Of a DNA stretch of 64,000 nucleotides, positions 8,634-12,640 are shown piece after piece; positions within the stretch are counted from its first letter, which is position 1, and every line of letters begins with the position of its first letter. A program made the translations under genes and the position numbers. The DNA is from a virus. Below the pieces are notes generated by a model, which was not told the DNA's origin, did no database searches, and was given only the letters and a program-made list of their open reading frames with translations. The stretch is from positions 22,772-86,771 of IMG/VR virus record IMGVR_UViG_3300025154_000065. One strand, given 5' to 3'.

Positions 8634-8662
8634 AAAATGGCGATACCTTTTGAGTATCGCCA
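8634..8662 (-). terminator. intrinsic terminator closing the TROVE/RNA operon
   Basis: Minus strand TGGCGATAC-TCAAAAG-GTATCGCCA-TTTT, about 20 nt after the stop of 8682..9017. Confidence 0.75.
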
Positions 8663-8681: not shown

Positions 8682-9017
8682 TTAGTTTATTTTAGCCTCA
8701 AGTTCGGTGATCTCCCTATCAAGATCACCACGTTTTTCATCGGCAGTCCTAAGAGCCGACCTTCTTGCCTTAGCTTGCCGTAAACGCCTCATTAATTCAC
8801 CCCTCATTCTAGTATTGATTTCATGATCTACTTCAGAAATCTTATCAGTAACCCATTCAGGCGTATCAGTCTTTAATTCTTGAAACCCATTATCAATGGT
8901 ACGAAGTTGCGACTGAATCAAAATCAATTCCTCAATAGAACCAATTTTTTCTACATCAACATCTATAGTAATTGTTAATACTCTCATTTTACTTCCTTTC
9001 GTAAGATTTAAAAACAT
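8682..9017 (-). CDS. coiled-coil protein coupled to the TROVE-vWA gene
   Basis: Heptad-like basic C-terminus RRLRQAKARRSALRTADEKRGDLDREITELEAKI; likely start MRVL at about 8987. Confidence 0.7.
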   Translation of the reverse strand: MFLNLTKGSKMRVLTITIDVDVEKIGSIEELILIQSQLRTIDNGFQELKTDTPEWVTDKISEVDHEINTRMRGELMRRLRQAKARRSALRTADEKRGDLDREITELEAKIN

Positions 9018-10464
9018 CCTTAAATGTCATCAATGGAGTTTCCATGATCTCATCAATAAATGAATACCGATTTGTTCTAAGTGTTCTAATTACATTAGGT
9101 AAAGAATAGTAATCAACTCTTTTACCCAACTCTTGTTCTTCAATTTGGATATTGGAGATTTTACAGTTGTAAGAAAGTCTATTAGTTTCTCCTGGTACAT
9201 GAAGTAAATATACAGTTGGTTCTATGTCAAATTTCTTTGCATATTTTGCATATGCAGTATGAAATAAAGGATTGGTATTATCTCCTCCGTCAGAACAAAT
9301 CACTATTCCATTTACAACAATACTCTTTTCAGAAATATAATCAAGTCCACAACCTACTGAAGTACCACCGACTGCATTCAACCTTTTGGTCATATCCTTG
9401 ATCTCTTCTAATGTTTTACCTGTTACATCAAAATAAGTAGGTTGAACATTAAAAAATACAAGGTAAACTTTACCTTTTACCTGTTGTGCAATCAGAGCAG
9501 CTATATTTCTCGCAACTTCTATAGAAGTTTGCATACTTCCACTTCTATCTCCAAGGACAAGCCAATCGCCTTCAATTCCTCCTAGTTTCTCAAGTCTTTG
9601 TTCCTGAACGTTCTCAAGTTTTGAAGCCGTTTTTATATCTGTCCTTTTCAATACTTCTGCCGCTTTGCCAGCTTTTAATGTACTTACATTTTTCTTACTA
9701 GTCTTCATTCTTTCAACTGCTTTGTCGTAAGCAGCTTTAAGAGTTGGATTTTCAAAAACTCCATATTTCTTTAGCATATTGGTGTTATTGATTAATTCAT
9801 TCCCACTCATTCTTTCAATTAAAGCAAGAATAAGATCCGTTTTACCTTTTATTCCACCTAATGCACCAACAGCTATGAGAAATGGAATCTCATAATTCAA
9901 AATTGTACCAGCAGCCTCTTCTGCATTCATATTTTTCAATTGTCTGATTGCAGCAAAAGGGCTATTTACTGGATATTCTTTTTTAAAGAGAATTGAATTT
10001 GCATAATCAGATGGTTTTATATGATACATGGCATAAAGAGATTTAAGACTTTCTCTATGTTGCATAGCAGTTTTATTCCACCATCTTTTATTCTTCTCTC
10101 TTTCTCTCAAATAAAGATTTACTGCTTGTTTCAGAAATTTTGACCCGCCATCATAAGATATAGGAAGAGATTTAGAAAATCTACTTGCTCTTAGAAAATC
10201 TCTCATGTCAAGGAGGCAGAGATTGGCTGCAGAATTCTCAAATAATTCATCATCGCCTTTTGATTTCAAGGCGATGATTGGCAATGCCACTTTGCTATCT
10301 CTAACTTCGCCTTTTTTTGAATTCCATGCAATAATATGAGCAAATAATTCAGGTTCTTGATTTGCAGCTTGGAATCCAATATCTTGATAAATAGTTAGAT
10401 CTTTGTGTCCAATTTTGATGAGTTGAGAAACAAGTTGGGATTTAGAAATCCCGGTGTTTTCCAT
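8989..10464 (-). CDS. TROVE/Ro60-like RNA-binding protein with C-terminal vWA domain
   Basis: vWA MIDAS DRSGS, GGT, SDG; helical N-terminal region with EPELFAH..W...G..RD and HIKP resembling TROVE motifs; adjacent to tRNA-like RNAs. Confidence 0.75.
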   Translation of the reverse strand: MENTGISKSQLVSQLIKIGHKDLTIYQDIGFQAANQEPELFAHIIAWNSKKGEVRDSKVALPIIALKSKGDDELFENSAANLCLLDMRDFLRASRFSKSLPISYDGGSKFLKQAVNLYLREREKNKRWWNKTAMQHRESLKSLYAMYHIKPSDYANSILFKKEYPVNSPFAAIRQLKNMNAEEAAGTILNYEIPFLIAVGALGGIKGKTDLILALIERMSGNELINNTNMLKKYGVFENPTLKAAYDKAVERMKTSKKNVSTLKAGKAAEVLKRTDIKTASKLENVQEQRLEKLGGIEGDWLVLGDRSGSMQTSIEVARNIAALIAQQVKGKVYLVFFNVQPTYFDVTGKTLEEIKDMTKRLNAVGGTSVGCGLDYISEKSIVVNGIVICSDGGDNTNPLFHTAYAKYAKKFDIEPTVYLLHVPGETNRLSYNCKISNIQIEEQELGKRVDYYSLPNVIRTLRTNRYSFIDEIMETPLMTFKDVFKSYERK

Positions 10465-10491
10465 GATTTACTCCTTTGGTTTGAGTTAAAT

Positions 10492-10568
10492 TGGTCTGGA
10501 TAGAAGGATTTGAACCTCCGATCCCTTGCTCCCAAAGCAAGTGCGATACCCGACTTCGCTATATCCAT
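10492..10568 (-). tRNA. tRNA-Pro(UGG) with encoded CCA and an A1:G72 mismatch
   Basis: Full cloverleaf: GCGA/TCGC D-stem, CTTGC-TTTGGGA-GCAAG, GGAGG-TTCAAAT-CCTTC, TATCCAG-A-CCA. Confidence 0.88.
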
Positions 10569-10583
10569 ATTTAATTGAAAAGA

Positions 10584-10723
10584 TTAGGGTAAGTTATTTG
10601 AGGCATTCATTTGTAAAGTCTGATTATGAGTCAGATGCGTTTACCAATTCCGCCGTATAGTCCGAAGACTACAGAAGGACTCGAACCTTCAATTTTGCAT
10701 GTATCCTCAAAAAGTAACCCTAA
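10584..10723 (-). ncRNA. motif RNA A: terminal motif stem enclosing a circularly permuted tRNA (anticodon CAT)
   Basis: TTAGGGT-TACT-TTTTGAGG-ATACATGC, then T-arm, acceptor closed by a TTCG loop, D-arm, TCTGA-CTCATAA-TCAGA, then AATGAATG-CCTCAAAT-AACTT-ACCCTAA. Confidence 0.85.
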
Positions 10724-10730
10724 ATTGAAA

Positions 10731-10801
10731 AATGGGATAAATCAAAAAGGCTTTATTGTTTTCTCCGATGATAACATGTATGCCTTCTTAGTAATCCCAT
10801 T
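10731..10801 (-). ncRNA. motif RNA B: minimal motif hairpin without tRNA part
   Basis: AATGGGAT-TACT-AAGAAGGC-ATACATG...ATAAA-GCCTTTTT-GATTT-ATCCCATT. Confidence 0.78.
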
Positions 10802-10808
10802 TGTTTAC

Positions 10809-10915
10809 TGGTGGGGAATGTTGTTCCATTGCAATTTTAGATCCTAAATCTAACGCATGTATGATTACTTTGTGCCATTTCTGGAAGTCAAATAACCTTT
10901 TAATGGCATTCCCCA
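10809..10915 (-). ncRNA. motif RNA C: tRNA acceptor with CCA and Leu(TAG) anticodon arm carrying the permuted motif
   Basis: GGGGAATG/CATTCCCC-A-CCA; GGTTATTT-GACTT-CCAGAAATGG-CACA-AAGTAATC-ATACATGC; TTAGA-TTTAGGA-TCTAA. Confidence 0.75.
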
Positions 10916-10924
10916 TAAATAAAT

Positions 10925-11506
10925 CTATCTTGATTTCTTATTAATTTTTAGAGGAATCGAAGATAGAGTTGAAGCCAAATATTCGTTTTTTCTTACTATA
11001 TCAATTGGCAAATTCTTTGAAATCTGTATATAGTAATCAGAATCAAGCCAATTAGTATATTCCATTCTTCCTCTAGTTTTATTACATTTTTTACATGCAG
11101 TCAAGAGATTTTCTTCTATGCTTGGACCACCATTTTCCCATAAAATTAAATGATCAACCGTTAGAGGAATTCCTGTTTTATTACAATATCTACATGAATA
11201 ATGATCCCGTTGAAAAACTCTCCAGCTTACAAATTGGTCAATTTGTCTTTCGCATTTCCTTACAATAGTTTTTATAAATTGACCATCATTTTGGGAGAAT
11301 ACTTCTGTTTTCAATGTATCTGTTTGACGAAAGAATTTCTTCCAATCTTCTAAATTCATATTTAAGTATATTTCGTTATGCAAATCTTCTACATAATCTG
11401 GAAGATAACAATAATAATCTTTTTCATTTCCAGATATAATAATTCCTGATATTTGGATGGTATTTCCAAGATCATAAATTTCAATATCATCAAGAGTTAT
11501 TTCCAT
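10925..11506 (-). CDS. HNH endonuclease inside the RNA array
   Basis: RDHYSCRYC, TVDHL, GG...ENLLTACKKCN. Confidence 0.88.
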   Translation of the reverse strand: MEITLDDIEIYDLGNTIQISGIIISGNEKDYYCYLPDYVEDLHNEIYLNMNLEDWKKFFRQTDTLKTEVFSQNDGQFIKTIVRKCERQIDQFVSWRVFQRDHYSCRYCNKTGIPLTVDHLILWENGGPSIEENLLTACKKCNKTRGRMEYTNWLDSDYYIQISKNLPIDIVRKNEYLASTLSSIPLKINKKSR

Positions 11507-11523
11507 ATTCTTCCTTTAAAAGA

Positions 11524-11617
11524 TGGCGGGGGAGGGTGGGGCGAACCACCGTTTGCATGTAAGATTTTACAATTAGCTTTTTAGCAAGTCTGAAAACCTT
11601 TCATCAATTCTCCCCCA
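11524..11617 (-). ncRNA. motif RNA D: acceptor with CCA and T-arm, with the D and anticodon arms replaced by the permuted motif
   Basis: GGGGGAG/CTCCCCC-G-CCA; GGTGG-TTCGCC-CCACC; GATGAAA-GGTTTTCA-GACTT-GCTAAAAAGC-TAAT-TGTAAAATC-TTACATGC. Confidence 0.78.
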
Positions 11618-11624
11618 TAAAAGA

Positions 11625-11749
11625 TGGGTTGTAAATCTGCTGTACTATTTAGGTTACGCTCGTGGGAATCGAACCCACAACACTCGGCTTTCAAGGCTGA
11701 TGCTCTACCAATTGAGCTAAAGCATGTAAGCACAGCAAGTAACAACCCA
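11625..11749 (-). ncRNA. motif RNA E: motif stem extending the acceptor of a whole tRNA body (anticodon TGA, no CCA)
   Basis: TGGGTTGT-TACT-TGCTGTGC-TTACATGC, D-arm GCTCAATTGGTAGAGC, CTTGAAA loop, GTGGG-TTCGATT-CCCAC, GTACAGCA-GATTT-ACAACCCA. Confidence 0.82.
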
Positions 11750-11758
11750 AGCAATAGC

Positions 11759-11767
11759 AATATAGCA
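11759..11767 (-). promoter_or_regulatory. extended -10 promoter for the RNA/TROVE operon
   Basis: TGCTATATT (TGn-TATAAT-like) about 10 nt upstream of RNA E; no clear -35. Confidence 0.5.
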
Positions 11768-12640
11768 TGGTTTTTGAAGAGGCATAAAATATTATTGATT
11801 GATACAATAAATTACTTTTTAAATTTGTTATTTATATGCAATACCAAATCACCAAATATCTCCTTGTCCATCAAAAATGGTCCCTGTATTGGACTTTTTA
11901 AATACTTCGATTGATACCAAATCCATATTCCATATTCTGGCAATTGGCCTTCTTTGCCAAATACAGGACCAACACGAAATCTCAACAATTGTTCATCATC
12001 TAATATTGCAAAAGTTGAATCATCTTCTATAATTTCATTAGTTTCCATGAGGTTCTCTCCCTTCAAAAAATTGAAACCAACATTCTTTACAAAAATCTTT
12101 TGTGTATATTAGTTTTCTATCAGAATCAAAAGCTAATAAGTAGCCAAATTCTTCATTTAATTCTTCTCCACATAATAATTGTTTATATTCAAAATTGTTT
12201 TTAATAATATGAATTTTATTATTTTGAAAATAAACTGTTTTTGTCATTCCTTAATCCTTTTGAATATCAATTTTGAATTATCTATATAAATTAATTCCCA
12301 TCCGTTATTACCATATTCATTTAAATTCTCTTCAAAATTATCAAAGCTAAATGGAAAACATCCACTATATTCAAAATATCTTATTTTGTATTCATATTTT
12401 ATTATTCCCATATCCACTCCCACTCTTTTTCATTGTCAATTCTTTTCTGAATACTTTCTGGGATTCCATTAGGAAACCAACATTTTAGACATATATCTTT
12501 AGAAGATATATGTCTTTCACAAGAATCAAAAGTTATTATCTTACAGTGATATATGTCAATCTCTTCACAACATATAAAATATTGTGTTATATTTTTAGAT
12601 GAAATAAAATGTATTTTACCATTTTGAATATATCCTGTTA

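What the first reader, a model, noticed from the sequence alone, without database searches (positions are those of the whole stretch)
10809..11617. The shared motif is itself permuted and grafted inside CCA-ended tRNA halves (RNAs C and D)
Seen: in C and D the two motif strands appear in reversed order, joined by a 3-bp stem with a tetraloop (CCA-GAAA-TGG; GCT-AAAA-AGC), and the RNA ends form a 7-8 bp acceptor plus NCCA. D keeps a T-arm with a 6-nt loop and lacks D and anticodon arms. C keeps a Leu(TAG) anticodon arm and lacks D and T arms. Inference: the module works irrespective of strand connectivity, and each RNA presents a different tRNA face. CCA ends could allow RNase P/Z processing or aminoacylation.
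Basis: partly seen in the sequence, partly recalled or inferred. Interest (0 to 1): 0.8.

Follow-up and report, generated by a model that had tools for sequence, protein, structure and literature searches.

The report
Ro60 handle inside CCA-ended tRNA scaffolds
Two small RNA genes of an uncultured groundwater phage are tRNA-shaped scaffolds with built-in CCA tails that carry, in place of the D arm, a loop-capped copy of the conserved "handle" found on the other small RNAs beside the phage's Ro60-like protein, and the same design recurs with compensating base changes in many related phages.

Summary
RNA D (window 11616-11524, minus strand, 93 nt) and RNA C (10914-10809, 106 nt) each have a perfect 7-8 bp acceptor stem followed by N-CCA. 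Each encloses a handle in the order Y strand, 3-bp tetraloop hairpin, X strand, UACAUGC.

In the neighbouring RNAs E, A and B, and in most related loci, the same two strands come in the opposite order and enclose a tRNA-like body, as in Y RNAs. The adjacent 491-aa protein is a very divergent Ro60: its fold matches Ro60, but Pfam finds only the vWA domain.

C and D are not decayed tRNAs.
- A covariance model built without them finds them as the two best hits in the window.
- The handle helices covary: 85.5% of cells paired, against 47% after shuffling.
- 28 of 38 loop-capped handles in related phage loci sit in a 7-bp acceptor plus NCCA. The figure for random positions is 1.8-2.1%.

Nine relatives carry G3·U70 plus A73, the alanine identity set. 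C and D do not.

Binding, processing and charging are all untested, and no RNA data were available. This scan has noted similar handle-tagged tRNA scaffolds beside Ro60-like genes in other phages. I found none in print. Verdict: a new variant of the Ro60/Y-RNA kind.

The parts
11524..11616 (-). RNA D: a tRNA-order scaffold made of a 7-bp acceptor, the loop-capped handle, a T-like arm, and G plus CCA. It has no D arm and no anticodon arm.
   Evidence: Sequence read. MFE fold z = -3.98. 7-bp acceptor plus NCCA found. One orthologue is L088 3172-3272.
11555..11602 (-). Handle of D: Y strand 11598-11590, ACUU 11589-11586, hairpin GCU-AAAA-AGC 11585-11576, X strand 11572-11563 with a bulged U, UUACAUGC 11562-11555.
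   Evidence: Covariance model hits: R1 39.4 bits, R2 33.9 bits, and the leave-out model R3 31.6 bits, E 1.5e-4, with the alignment shown.
11535..11550 (-). T-like arm of D, GGUGG-UUCGCC-CCACC (5 bp, 6-nt loop). It abuts the 3' acceptor strand directly.
   Evidence: The only alternative is a 4-bp stem with an 8-nt loop.
10809..10914 (-). RNA C: an 8-bp acceptor, a second stem, the loop-capped handle, an anticodon-like arm, and A plus CCA. It has no T arm.
   Evidence: (z = -3.25). Orthologues are L051 2576-2683 and L100 6629-6733. The consensus fold has 28 pairs, 14 of them with changes on both sides.
10855..10901 (-). Handle of C: Y strand 10897-10889, ACUU 10888-10885, hairpin CCA-GAAA-UGG 10884-10875, X strand 10871-10863, AUACAUGC 10862-10855.
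   Evidence: R1 49.5 bits, R2 45.8 bits, and the leave-out model R3 35.1 bits, E 2.8e-5.
10837..10853 (-). Anticodon-like arm of C, UUAGA-UUUAGGA-UCUAA. The loop pattern NUURGGA is shared with the orthologues.
   Evidence: 5 pairs, 3 of them with changes on both sides. The loops are UUUAGGA, AUUGGGA and CUUGGGA.
10826..10906 (-). Second stem of C, CCAUU (10906-10902) paired with AAUGG (10830-10826). It encloses the handle and the arm and is separated from the acceptor by AACAA on the 3' side.
   Evidence: The orthologues have CCGUU/GACGG and CGGUU/AGCCG by my reading of the alignment.
10925..11506 (-). HNH endonuclease ORF (193 aa), wedged between D (18 nt after its CCA) and C (10 nt before its G1).
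   Evidence: ORF. Pfam HNH at 1.3e-10. Many PHROG HNH families match.
8989..10464 (-). Divergent Ro60 (HEAT-repeat ring plus vWA domain), the presumed protein partner of the handle.
   Evidence: AlphaFold model with pLDDT 85 and pTM 0.75. The top 13 Foldseek PDB hits are Ro60 structures over the full length, TM 0.56-0.66, 13-16% identity. Pfam finds vWA only.
11625..11749 (-). Context, RNA E: usual connectivity. UACU plus X strand plus UUACAUGC, then a cloverleaf body that ARAGORN calls tRNA-Ser(UGA), then Y strand plus GAUUU. The outer stem is UGGGUUG/CAACCCA.
   Evidence: X at WIN 1272 with a partner 84 nt downstream, score 15.
10585..10800 (-). Context, RNAs A and B, both in the usual connectivity. 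A is a mini hairpin (10800-10732). B (10722-10585) is a handle stem enclosing a circularly permuted tRNA-like body.

Best explanation
C and D belong to a conserved class of phage small RNAs. In this class the handle shared by all the RNAs beside a divergent Ro60 gene is closed by a short hairpin and grafted into a tRNA-order scaffold, at the place of the D arm. The RNA's own ends then form a normal acceptor stem with a genomically encoded NCCA.

The handle consists of an 8-9 bp covarying helix, an ACUU/UACU internal loop, and the junction nUACA followed by UGC.

Proposed working, all steps inferred:
1. The array, the HNH gene and the Ro60 gene are transcribed together on the minus strand.
2. 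Host tRNA-processing enzymes cut out C and D: RNase P at G1, and 3' trimming back to CCA. This also frees the HNH mRNA.
3. The handle docks on the Ro60-like ring, as Y-RNA stems do on Ro60.
4. The exposed tRNA part acts as an adaptor for tRNA-binding proteins. In D that part is an acceptor/T-arm minihelix. In C it is the acceptor plus a conserved NUURGGA loop.

What is shown: the anatomy, the conservation, the covariation, the Ro60 fold, and the genomic linkage. What is inferred: transcription, processing, binding and adaptor function.
For: Anatomy.

Family membership without circularity: model R3, built from 30 sequences of other loci, ranks C and D first and second in the window.

Covariation of the loop-capped handle: 35 sequences, 85.5% of cells paired against 47.4% after shuffling (0 of 500 shuffles as high), 30-49% when the partner is slid, and 11 of 12 pairs with changes on both sides.

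Scaffold:
- 28 of 38 loop-capped handle hits lie in a 7-bp acceptor (no mismatch, at most one G·U) followed by N-CCA.
- The same criterion is met at 88 of 5000 random positions on the same strand and 105 of 5000 on the opposite strand.
- At least 12 different acceptor sequences occur among them.
- C-type orthologues show 14 of 28 pairs with changes on both sides.
- The fuller 8-member group shows covarying acceptor, anticodon-like arm and canonical T arm, 15 of 21 pairs.

Linkage to the protein:
- TACATGC occurs 222 times on the protein strand and 35 times on the other strand in 131 distinct loci.
- 88 of 89 model hits are on the protein strand.
- In the phage's own 86.8-kb record, C and D are the only two significant matches; a third, weak one (E 0.8) also lies in this array.

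Protein: the fold is Ro60.

Operon: the only clean minus-strand terminator-like site lies downstream of the operon, at 8662-8638.

Precedent: M. smegmatis YrlA is cut by RNase P and gains CCA (Chen 2014, PMC4201824; passages read).
Against: - There are no RNA data. No RNA run holds the locus, so transcription, ends and CCA status are unverified.
- No binding test is possible with these tools.
- The handle lacks the GNCGAA motif through which known bacterial Y RNAs bind Ro60. There are 0 matches on the RNA strand in 10450-11800. Binding therefore cannot be transferred from known cases.
- C and D deviate from the UACU loop consensus (CACA and UAAU), and D's helix has a bulge.
- Direct orthologues are few: 2 others for C and 1 for D. 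A pattern scan of IMG/VR added none.
- The alignment used for the pair counts was fitted to the model.
- C lacks a T arm, which bacterial RNase P normally uses.
Confidence: 0.6

Rival explanations
1. C and D are mainly processing punctuation. On this view they are tRNA-shaped signals that let RNase P and 3' processing enzymes cut the polycistronic transcript, freeing the HNH mRNA and the neighbouring RNAs. The released RNAs themselves would have no role with Ro60.
For: D ends 18 nt before the HNH start codon, and C begins 10 nt after its stop. The D-type orthologue in L088 is also followed directly by an ORF. tRNA-like structures are known to be used for 3'-end formation, as noted in the introduction of Wang 2018.
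Against: Punctuation does not explain why a 47-48 nt handle with covarying helices and invariant loop letters is kept inside the scaffold. Most scaffolded copies in relatives are not next to an ORF. The L088 ORF is unrelated to HNH. Punctuation may well be a side effect of the main explanation.
Confidence: 0.12
2. The handle is real but is not a Ro60 docking site. It could be bound by another factor, such as the 111-aa ORF downstream of Ro60 or a host protein. It could also act as RNA alone, for example as a folding or processing element.
For: The handle has no known Ro60-binding motif and does not match Rfam YrlA, scoring 11.5 bits against a cut-off of 69. Linkage to the gene is only genomic.
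Against: Strand-specific clustering beside this one protein family is seen across loci whose proteins share only 27-63% identity. The protein has the Ro60 fold, and known Ro60 genes are flanked by their Y RNAs (Chen 2014).
Confidence: 0.15
3. C and D are working tRNAs, or precursors of tRNAs, with an outsized insertion. The module would be tolerated or excised, and the RNAs would decode.
For: They have perfect acceptors with encoded CCA. Relatives keep anticodon-like and T arms and a D-loop-like stretch. A subclass has G3·U70/A73.
Against: D has no anticodon arm and C has no T arm. Position 33 of the anticodon-like loops varies among U, C, A and G in the fuller group, by my reading of the alignment. 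Several relatives have tetraloop-capped stems where the anticodon arm would be. The same handle also occurs on non-tRNA hairpins such as RNA A. I know of no bacterial or phage enzyme that excises such an element. ARAGORN calls none of them among the 90 tRNAs it finds in 12 loci.
Confidence: 0.06
4. C and D are decayed tRNA pseudogenes, and their resemblance to the neighbouring RNAs is chance.
For: Each lacks two of the four tRNA arms. Phage tRNA clusters do contain pseudogenes.
Against: See: compensatory changes, conserved architecture in phages whose Ro60-like proteins share 27-63% identity with this one, and acceptor plus NCCA at 74% of hits against about 2% at random positions.
Confidence: 0.03

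Closest known systems
YrlA-type bacterial and phage Y RNAs with Ro60/Rsr (Rfam RF02553; Chen et al. 2014, PMC4201824; Wang et al. 2018, bioRxiv 10.1101/312249; passages read)
   Same: Small RNAs encoded in tandem next to a Ro60 gene. A protein-docking stem is combined with a tRNA mimic. More than one RNA occurs per locus. The system is present in phages.
   Different: - In YrlA the 5' and 3' ends form the Ro60 stem, the acceptor is a closed loop, and there is no free CCA (Wang 2018). In C and D the connectivity is the reverse: the ends form an acceptor with encoded CCA and the handle is closed by a loop.
- The YrlA motif GNCGAA is absent.
- RF02553 scores 11.5 bits against a cut-off of 69.
- The protein lacks a detectable TROVE Pfam match.
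[quoted passage not shown] 2014)
   Same: A Ro60-associated RNA that ends in an acceptor-like helix with CCA and is made by tRNA-processing enzymes.
   Different: There the CCA-tailed species is a half-molecule, produced by cutting a closed 7-bp acceptor, and CA is added afterwards. Here the RNA is a single chain in tRNA order and the CCA is encoded.
Thermus phage phiLo Ro60 with Yrl1 and Yrl2 (PMC12135203; abstract and passages read). Its structures 9KOP and 9L5Y are the best fold matches.
   Same: A phage-encoded Ro60 with two small RNAs just upstream, and the closest solved fold.
   Different: Yrl1 and Yrl2 were identified through the CGAA motif. They are not described as tRNA-order or CCA-ended in the passages I read. 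Identity to the protein here is 15-16%.
tmRNA tRNA-like domain (as summarised in Wang 2018; the alanine identity rule itself is recalled textbook knowledge)
   Same: A non-decoding RNA with an acceptor, a T arm and free CCA. Nine relatives of C and D carry G3·U70 plus A73.
   Different: C and D themselves have G3-C70. There is no mRNA-like part, no SmpB and no pseudoknots. ARAGORN finds no tmRNA.
Engineered 'tRNA scaffold' for expressing recombinant RNAs
   Same: A foreign structured RNA is inserted into a tRNA body so that cellular tRNA enzymes process and stabilise it.
   Different: That is a laboratory design, as I recall with the insert in the anticodon stem. Here the design is natural and the insert is at the D-arm position. 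One relative, L108, has the insert after an intact D arm.

Membership tests
Y RNA, YrlA subfamily (RF02553) | Encoded next to a Ro60/TROVE gene | tested here: met
   The protein at 8989-10464 has the Ro60 fold: its top 13 PDB fold hits are Ro60. C lies about 345 nt and D about 1060 nt upstream of it on the same strand.
Y RNA, YrlA subfamily (RF02553) | Protein-binding stem formed by the RNA's own 5' and 3' ends, carrying GNCGAAN0-1G | tested here: not met
   The ends of C and D form an acceptor plus CCA. GNCGAA has no match on the RNA strand in 10450-11800.
Y RNA, YrlA subfamily (RF02553) | Match to the Rfam covariance model at its gathering score | tested here: not met
   The best score in the whole phage record is 11.5 bits against 69, and that hit lies in RNA E, not in C or D. 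None of the 14 control genomes passed the cut-off either, so the search had no positive control. Rfam scans of the window show only two tRNAs.
Y RNA, YrlA subfamily (RF02553) | Physical binding to Ro60 | not testable with these tools
   There is no RNA-protein docking or expression data. It needs RIP or EMSA.
Canonical tRNA (RF00005) | Cloverleaf with D, anticodon and T arms that is recognised by tRNA finders | tested here: not met
   ARAGORN and Rfam call only tRNA-Pro and RNA E in the window. D lacks the D and anticodon arms, and C lacks the D and T arms.
Canonical tRNA (RF00005) | 7-bp acceptor stem, discriminator base and 3' CCA | tested here: met
   D has 7 bp, then G, then CCA. C has 7-8 bp, then A, then CCA.
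Alanine-chargeable tRNA mimic (tmRNA-like acceptor) | G3·U70 wobble pair with A73 | tested here: not met
   C and D have G3-C70. The feature is met in 9 relatives: 8 listed, and L134 926 by my reading.
Loop-capped handle in a tRNA-order scaffold (the class defined in this report) | Y strand, hairpin, X strand and nUACAUGC, with a covarying X·Y helix | tested here: met
   The leave-out model R3 gives E 2.8e-5 for C and 1.5e-4 for D. Covariation is shown.
Loop-capped handle in a tRNA-order scaffold (the class defined in this report) | Handle enclosed by a 7-bp acceptor followed by NCCA | tested here: met
   Both C and D meet it. Across all hits it is 28 of 38, against about 2% at random positions.
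Ro60/TROVE protein family (for the partner protein) | HEAT-repeat ring plus C-terminal vWA domain | tested here: met
   The model has helices up to about residue 293 and then an alpha/beta vWA domain. Full-length fold matches to Ro60 have TM 0.56-0.66. By sequence only vWA is detected: 36 of 39 members match VWA_CoxE and 0 of 39 match the Pfam TROVE family.

The most novel reading that the evidence does not exclude
The tRNA-order, CCA-ended handle RNAs are true substrates of the tRNA machinery, including aminoacylation. The G3·U70/A73 subclass in related phages would be charged by AlaRS, and C and D possibly by other routes. A Ro60-like ring would then carry a chargeable tRNA mimic. That would couple Ro60-type RNA surveillance to EF-Tu, ribosomes or tRNA-targeting host defences, which has not been described for any Y RNA.
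Probability: 0.18. Interest if true: 0.85.

Novelty: new variant of a known kind. Interest (0 to 1): 0.63.

Why it matters
Ro60 with its Y RNAs is a conserved but still poorly understood RNA-surveillance particle. How the tRNA-like part of bacterial Y RNAs is used remains an open question.

- This phage family supplies a natural experiment. One handle is presented in two strand connectivities, on bodies that range from a bare hairpin to whole tRNAs. That gives a direct way to separate the docking function from the adaptor function.
- The tRNA-order members have free, encoded CCA ends, and some relatives have the alanine identity pair. The long-standing question of whether a Y-like RNA can enter tRNA pathways (RNase P, CCA enzyme, synthetase, EF-Tu) becomes testable with a few in vitro assays.
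- The work adds a large, unannotated Ro60 family that sequence profiles miss. It has more than 670 homologues in metagenomes, one match among 50,697 GenBank phage records, and four among 185,579 species genomes.
- It also shows that standard tRNA and Rfam annotation overlooks these RNAs.

Tried and rejected
Searches for orthologues:
- A single-protein scan of viral contigs found no relative. The alignment-based scans worked.
- A PDB sequence search with the protein found nothing. Only the fold search identified Ro60.
Fine-scale orthologues of C and D are therefore missing.
- A pattern scan of IMG/VR for C-type RNAs (handle end plus NUURGGA loop plus GCA) returned 35 stretches. Only one held a handle by model R2, and it is the contig already known as L051. 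The other 34 are taken as chance.
- The genome-contig scan gave only 4 loci, all in metagenome-assembled genomes.

Sequencing runs:
- No RNA holder is listed.
- Contigs of four DNA runs were laid on 10450-11800. Those covering C and D were identical to the window, so they gave no variants for a covariation test. Only the tRNA-like parts attracted contigs of other organisms.

Analyses that did not discriminate:
- The ungapped 8-mer complementarity test did not separate upstream (loop-capped) partners from controls: 9 against 7 at threshold 14. These helices often hold an internal purine-purine mismatch or a bulge, so the covariance models were used instead.
- The promoter scan was not above chance: 13 sites found against 16.9 expected.

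Ideas considered and set aside:
- The alternative handle spelling TACAGCA, a lead from earlier scan notes, is only mildly strand-biased in these loci: 81 against 46.
- The X strand of C is also perfectly complementary (8 of 8) to GGUUACUU at the 5' end of RNA B, 143 nt downstream. I judged this a by-product of the conserved UACU loop letters rather than a real long-range helix. I did not test it.
- The HNH ORF is unrelated to the ORF after the D-type RNA in L088.

Not done or not available:
- Complex prediction was not used. It takes proteins only, and no protein-protein claim is made.
Chen 2014 Supplemental Tables S1 and S2 and the supplementary figures list phage YrlA RNAs and could contain related forms that I could not see.
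- Two reviews, asked for as PMC10870794 and PMC6047535, are not held.
- My statement that the tRNA-order, CCA-ended design is not in print rests on searches and on the passages read.

Rows dropped:
- Eleven exact duplicate loci were left out of the model searches.
- In one search I examined 38 hits chosen. I left out near-identical copies (L067 = L051, L093 = L088, L106 = L082).
- I also left out the long-span hits inside tandem arrays (L005, L064, L071, L072, L080, L120, and further hits in L082, L088 and L100). One search had shown these without an acceptor plus NCCA.
- One of them, L120 2959, did score a perfect 7-mer plus ACCA. Its 5' strand overlaps a handle loop, so I did not count it.
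Full report
**Setting.** The window is part of an 86.8-kb IMG/VR virus record. CheckV estimates it at 66% complete. DNA runs from groundwater and soil metagenomes hold it.

All features discussed lie on the minus strand. Read 5' to 3' on that strand, the order is:
- RNA E, called tRNA-Ser(UGA) by ARAGORN, 11749-11625;
- RNA D, 11616-11524;
- an HNH endonuclease ORF, 11506-10925 (Pfam HNH 1.3e-10);
- RNA C, 10914-10809;
- a mini hairpin A, 10800-10732;
- RNA B, 10722-10585, with a circularly permuted tRNA-like body;
- tRNA-Pro, 10568-10492;
- a 491-aa ORF, 10464-8989;
- a 111-aa ORF;
- a terminator-like site at 8662-8638.

**The protein.**
- Pfam sees only a weak vWA match.
- PHROGs gives phrog_850 'RNA-binding protein' at 3e-8.
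- The PDB sequence search finds nothing.
- An AlphaFold model built from a 39-member alignment (pLDDT 85, pTM 0.75) has Ro60 structures as its 13 best PDB fold matches, over the full length. They include Thermus phage phiLo Ro60, Xenopus and human Ro60, and D. radiodurans Rsr, with TM 0.56-0.66 and 13-16% identity.
- It is therefore a Ro60-type ring plus vWA protein that sequence profiles miss. None of 39 family members matches Pfam's TROVE family, and 36 of 39 match a vWA family.
- The family is large in metagenomes: 678 proteins at E <= 1e-3 among the 8000 candidates scored.
- It is almost absent from named records: 1 of 50,697 GenBank phage records, and 4 loci in one genome each of 185,579 species.

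**The observation.**
Exact coordinates are given in the observation check and in the parts list.
- RNAfold recovers the described folds, with z = -3.25 for C and -3.98 for D. None of 200 shuffles folded as well.
- One addition: C has a second 5-bp stem (CCAUU/AAUGG) just inside the acceptor.

**What the shared motif is.** I fetched 142 loci around homologues of the protein, 131 of them distinct. The heptamer TACATGC occurs 222 times on the protein strand and 35 times on the other strand. It clusters mostly within 1.5 kb upstream of the gene and in some loci just downstream.

The handle has two strands:
- X = UACU, then 8-9 nt, then nUACAUGC;
- Y = AA, then 8-9 nt, then GACUU.
The 8-9 nt stretches pair and covary.

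In most units X comes first and Y follows after a body:
- At score threshold 14, 51 of 282 X motifs have an ungapped 8-bp partner 12-130 nt downstream. The control with shuffled X gives 8.
- Partner distances, listed at threshold 13, fall into two groups, 23-58 nt (mini hairpins) and 71-118 nt (tRNA-sized bodies).
- This is the Y-RNA/YrlA arrangement, in which the RNA's ends form the stem. RNAs E, A and B of the window follow it.
- In these units the UGC of UACAUGC begins the helix that leads into the body. In E that helix is the acceptor stem.

**C and D are the reverse arrangement.** The order is Y, a short hairpin, then X and UACAUGC, all set inside an acceptor stem.
- A covariance model of this loop-capped form (R1, 15 seed sequences) gave 89 hits at E <= 1 in the window plus 131 loci. 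Of these, 88 are on the protein strand (some are near-identical contig pairs).
- A second round (R2) added no new loci.
- On 35 aligned hits from the window and 20 of those loci, 85.5% of cells form standard pairs, against 47.4% after shuffling (0 of 500 shuffles as high). Sliding the partner by 1-3 columns gives 30-49%. Eleven of 12 pairs show changes on both sides. The caveat is that this alignment was fitted to the model and includes the seeds.
- To remove circularity for the window, I built R3 from 30 sequences of other loci only. It ranks C (35.1 bits, E 2.8e-5) and D (31.6 bits, E 1.5e-4) first and second in the 64-kb window. The third hit (19.5 bits) is the junction between units A and B.
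- In the phage's own record R1 gives three matches, all in this array: C, D, and a weak one (E 0.8) at the junction of units A and B.

**The scaffold is conserved too.**
- Of 38 loop-capped hits examined, 28 lie inside a 7-bp acceptor with no mismatch and at most one G·U, followed by one base and CCA. The dropped rows are listed under Tried and rejected.
- The same criterion is met at 88 of 5000 random positions on the same strand and 105 of 5000 on the other.
- The acceptors differ widely in sequence, with at least 12 different stems.
- These 28 RNAs come from the window and 18 loci whose proteins are 27-63% identical to the window's.
- Several recurring subtypes exist. The most widespread one (8 loci) has these parts in order: acceptor; a D-loop-like stretch UAGCAAARCGG; the handle; AUACAUGC, whose UGC can pair with the GCA of UAGCA; an anticodon-like arm; a canonical T arm; acceptor; U; CCA. 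Fifteen of its 21 predicted pairs have changes on both sides.
- The class is therefore best described as a tRNA whose D arm is replaced or extended by the handle.
- C has two orthologues, L051 and L100. The three share the acceptor, second stem, handle, arm and the AACAA/AUAAA spacer, with 14 of 28 pairs changed on both sides. Their arm loops read UUUAGGA, AUUGGGA and CUUGGGA. The loop pattern is conserved, not a Leu anticodon.
- D has one clear orthologue, L088 3172-3272, with a 9-bp acceptor, the handle, a non-T-like hairpin and ACCA.
- C and D thus look like trimmed members of the class.
- ARAGORN tRNAs in 12 of these loci and none of the scaffolded RNAs. It does call the bodies of some usual-order units.

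- Among the 28 scaffolds there are nine non-Watson-Crick acceptor pairs. Eight of them are G·U at position 3:70, each with discriminator A.
- A ninth RNA, L134 926, shows the same by my reading.
- G3·U70 with A73 is the identity set of alanyl-tRNA synthetase and is also used by tmRNA. This is recalled textbook knowledge; Wang 2018 describes tmRNA charging in general terms.
- Several of these nine have tetraloop-capped stems instead of anticodon loops, so they are not decoders.
- C and D have G3-C70 and carry no identity set that I can recognise.

**Mechanism.**
- Shown: the anatomy, conservation, covariation, the Ro60 fold, and strand-specific linkage.
- Inferred: the array is co-transcribed with the Ro60-like gene. 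C and D are released by RNase P and 3' trimming. The handle docks on the ring as Y-RNA stems do. The tRNA part recruits tRNA-binding proteins, in the way Y RNAs tether Ro60 to PNPase in D. radiodurans and, in vitro, in phage phiLo (abstracts and passages).
- D is essentially an acceptor/T-arm minihelix plus the handle. [quoted passage not shown]
- Precedent exists: M. smegmatis YrlA is cut by RNase P and receives CCA (Chen 2014).
- A modest further hint that both connectivities serve one partner: in three loci with a minority spelling of the Y-side loop, the loop-capped copy carries the same spelling as the usual-order copies. These are GACAC in L018 and L050, and GAUUU in L044. In the window itself the spellings are mixed: GAUUU in E and A, AACUU in B, and GACUU in C and D.

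**Comparison with what is known.** Published YrlA RNAs lack a free CCA end and resemble circularly permuted tRNAs (Wang 2018). They carry GNCGAAN0-1G (Chen 2014).
- Here that motif is absent on the RNA strand.
- RF02553 scores 11.5 bits against a cut-off of 69 (there was no positive control among the 14 control genomes).
- The connectivity is inverted.
- Five literature searches and the passages read turned up no description of a loop-capped Ro60 handle in a tRNA-order, CCA-ended scaffold. Supplements and two reviews could not be read.
- Earlier notes of this scan report similar 'handle-tagged' tRNA scaffolds beside Ro60-like (DUF2828) genes in other phages. I treat these as leads only. The protein family here shows no DUF2828 match, and the handle spelling differs.

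**Verdict.** This is a new variant of the Ro60/Y-RNA kind, of clear interest to the field, and the decisive experiments are simple ones.

Noticed in passing
L028 3154-3204, L038 2873-2923, L026 2957-3005, L015 2814-2863, L032 3030-3080, L112 2664-2712, L136 1650-1700, L129 2172-2220, L134 926-974 (handle coordinates; the scaffolds extend on both sides): Nine loop-capped handle RNAs in related phages have G3·U70 as their only non-Watson-Crick acceptor pair, together with A73 and CCA. That is the alanine identity set, as in tmRNA. Several of them have UUCG- or GAAA-capped stems where an anticodon arm would be.
   Followed up: partly
window 11625-11749 (-): RNA E scores as a tRNA (57 bits in Rfam; tRNA-Ser(UGA) in ARAGORN) but has a short variable region. 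Its leader and trailer form the handle (X at 11737-11730, Y at 11645-11638) and an outer stem. It is a whole tRNA body wearing the handle.
   Followed up: partly
L100 6768-6843; L026 2708-2781; L032 9002-9077: In related phages ARAGORN calls tRNAs with stop-codon-reading anticodons: UUA 'Stop', UCA 'SeC' and CUA 'Pyl'. The L100 one starts 4 nt after a UACAUGC handle motif, so it is the body of a handle-tagged unit.
   Followed up: no
window 10925-11506 (-): An HNH endonuclease ORF is wedged between D and C with 18-nt and 10-nt spacers. It is likely a free-standing homing endonuclease that inserted into the RNA array. The ORF at the matching place in L088 is unrelated to it.
   Followed up: partly
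window 10863-10870 and 10711-10718 (-): The X strand of C (AAGUAAUC) is perfectly complementary to GGUUACUU at the 5' end of RNA B, 143 nt downstream. It may be an alternative pairing, or a by-product of the conserved UACU loop.
   Followed up: no
Handle helix, fifth pair from the open end, in L037, L112, L129, L134 and L028 (alignment A2, columns 9 and 48): One subgroup keeps a purine-purine mismatch (A·A or A·G) in the middle of the otherwise covarying helix. This may be a conserved non-canonical pair used for recognition.
   Followed up: no
L108 432-477: In one relative the loop-capped handle sits after an intact D arm, at the anticodon-arm position. It is inside a scaffold with a T arm, a 7-bp acceptor and ACCA. 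So the graft site is not fixed.
   Followed up: no
L015, L026, L032, L038, L129, L136 (whole loci): In many related phages the Ro60-like gene and its handle RNAs lie in the middle of large tRNA clusters. ARAGORN tRNAs within about 9 kb.
   Followed up: no
window 8638-8662 (-) and 8682-9017 (-): A 111-aa ORF with no family match overlaps the end of the Ro60-like gene. It is followed by the only clean terminator-like hairpin on this strand.
   Followed up: no
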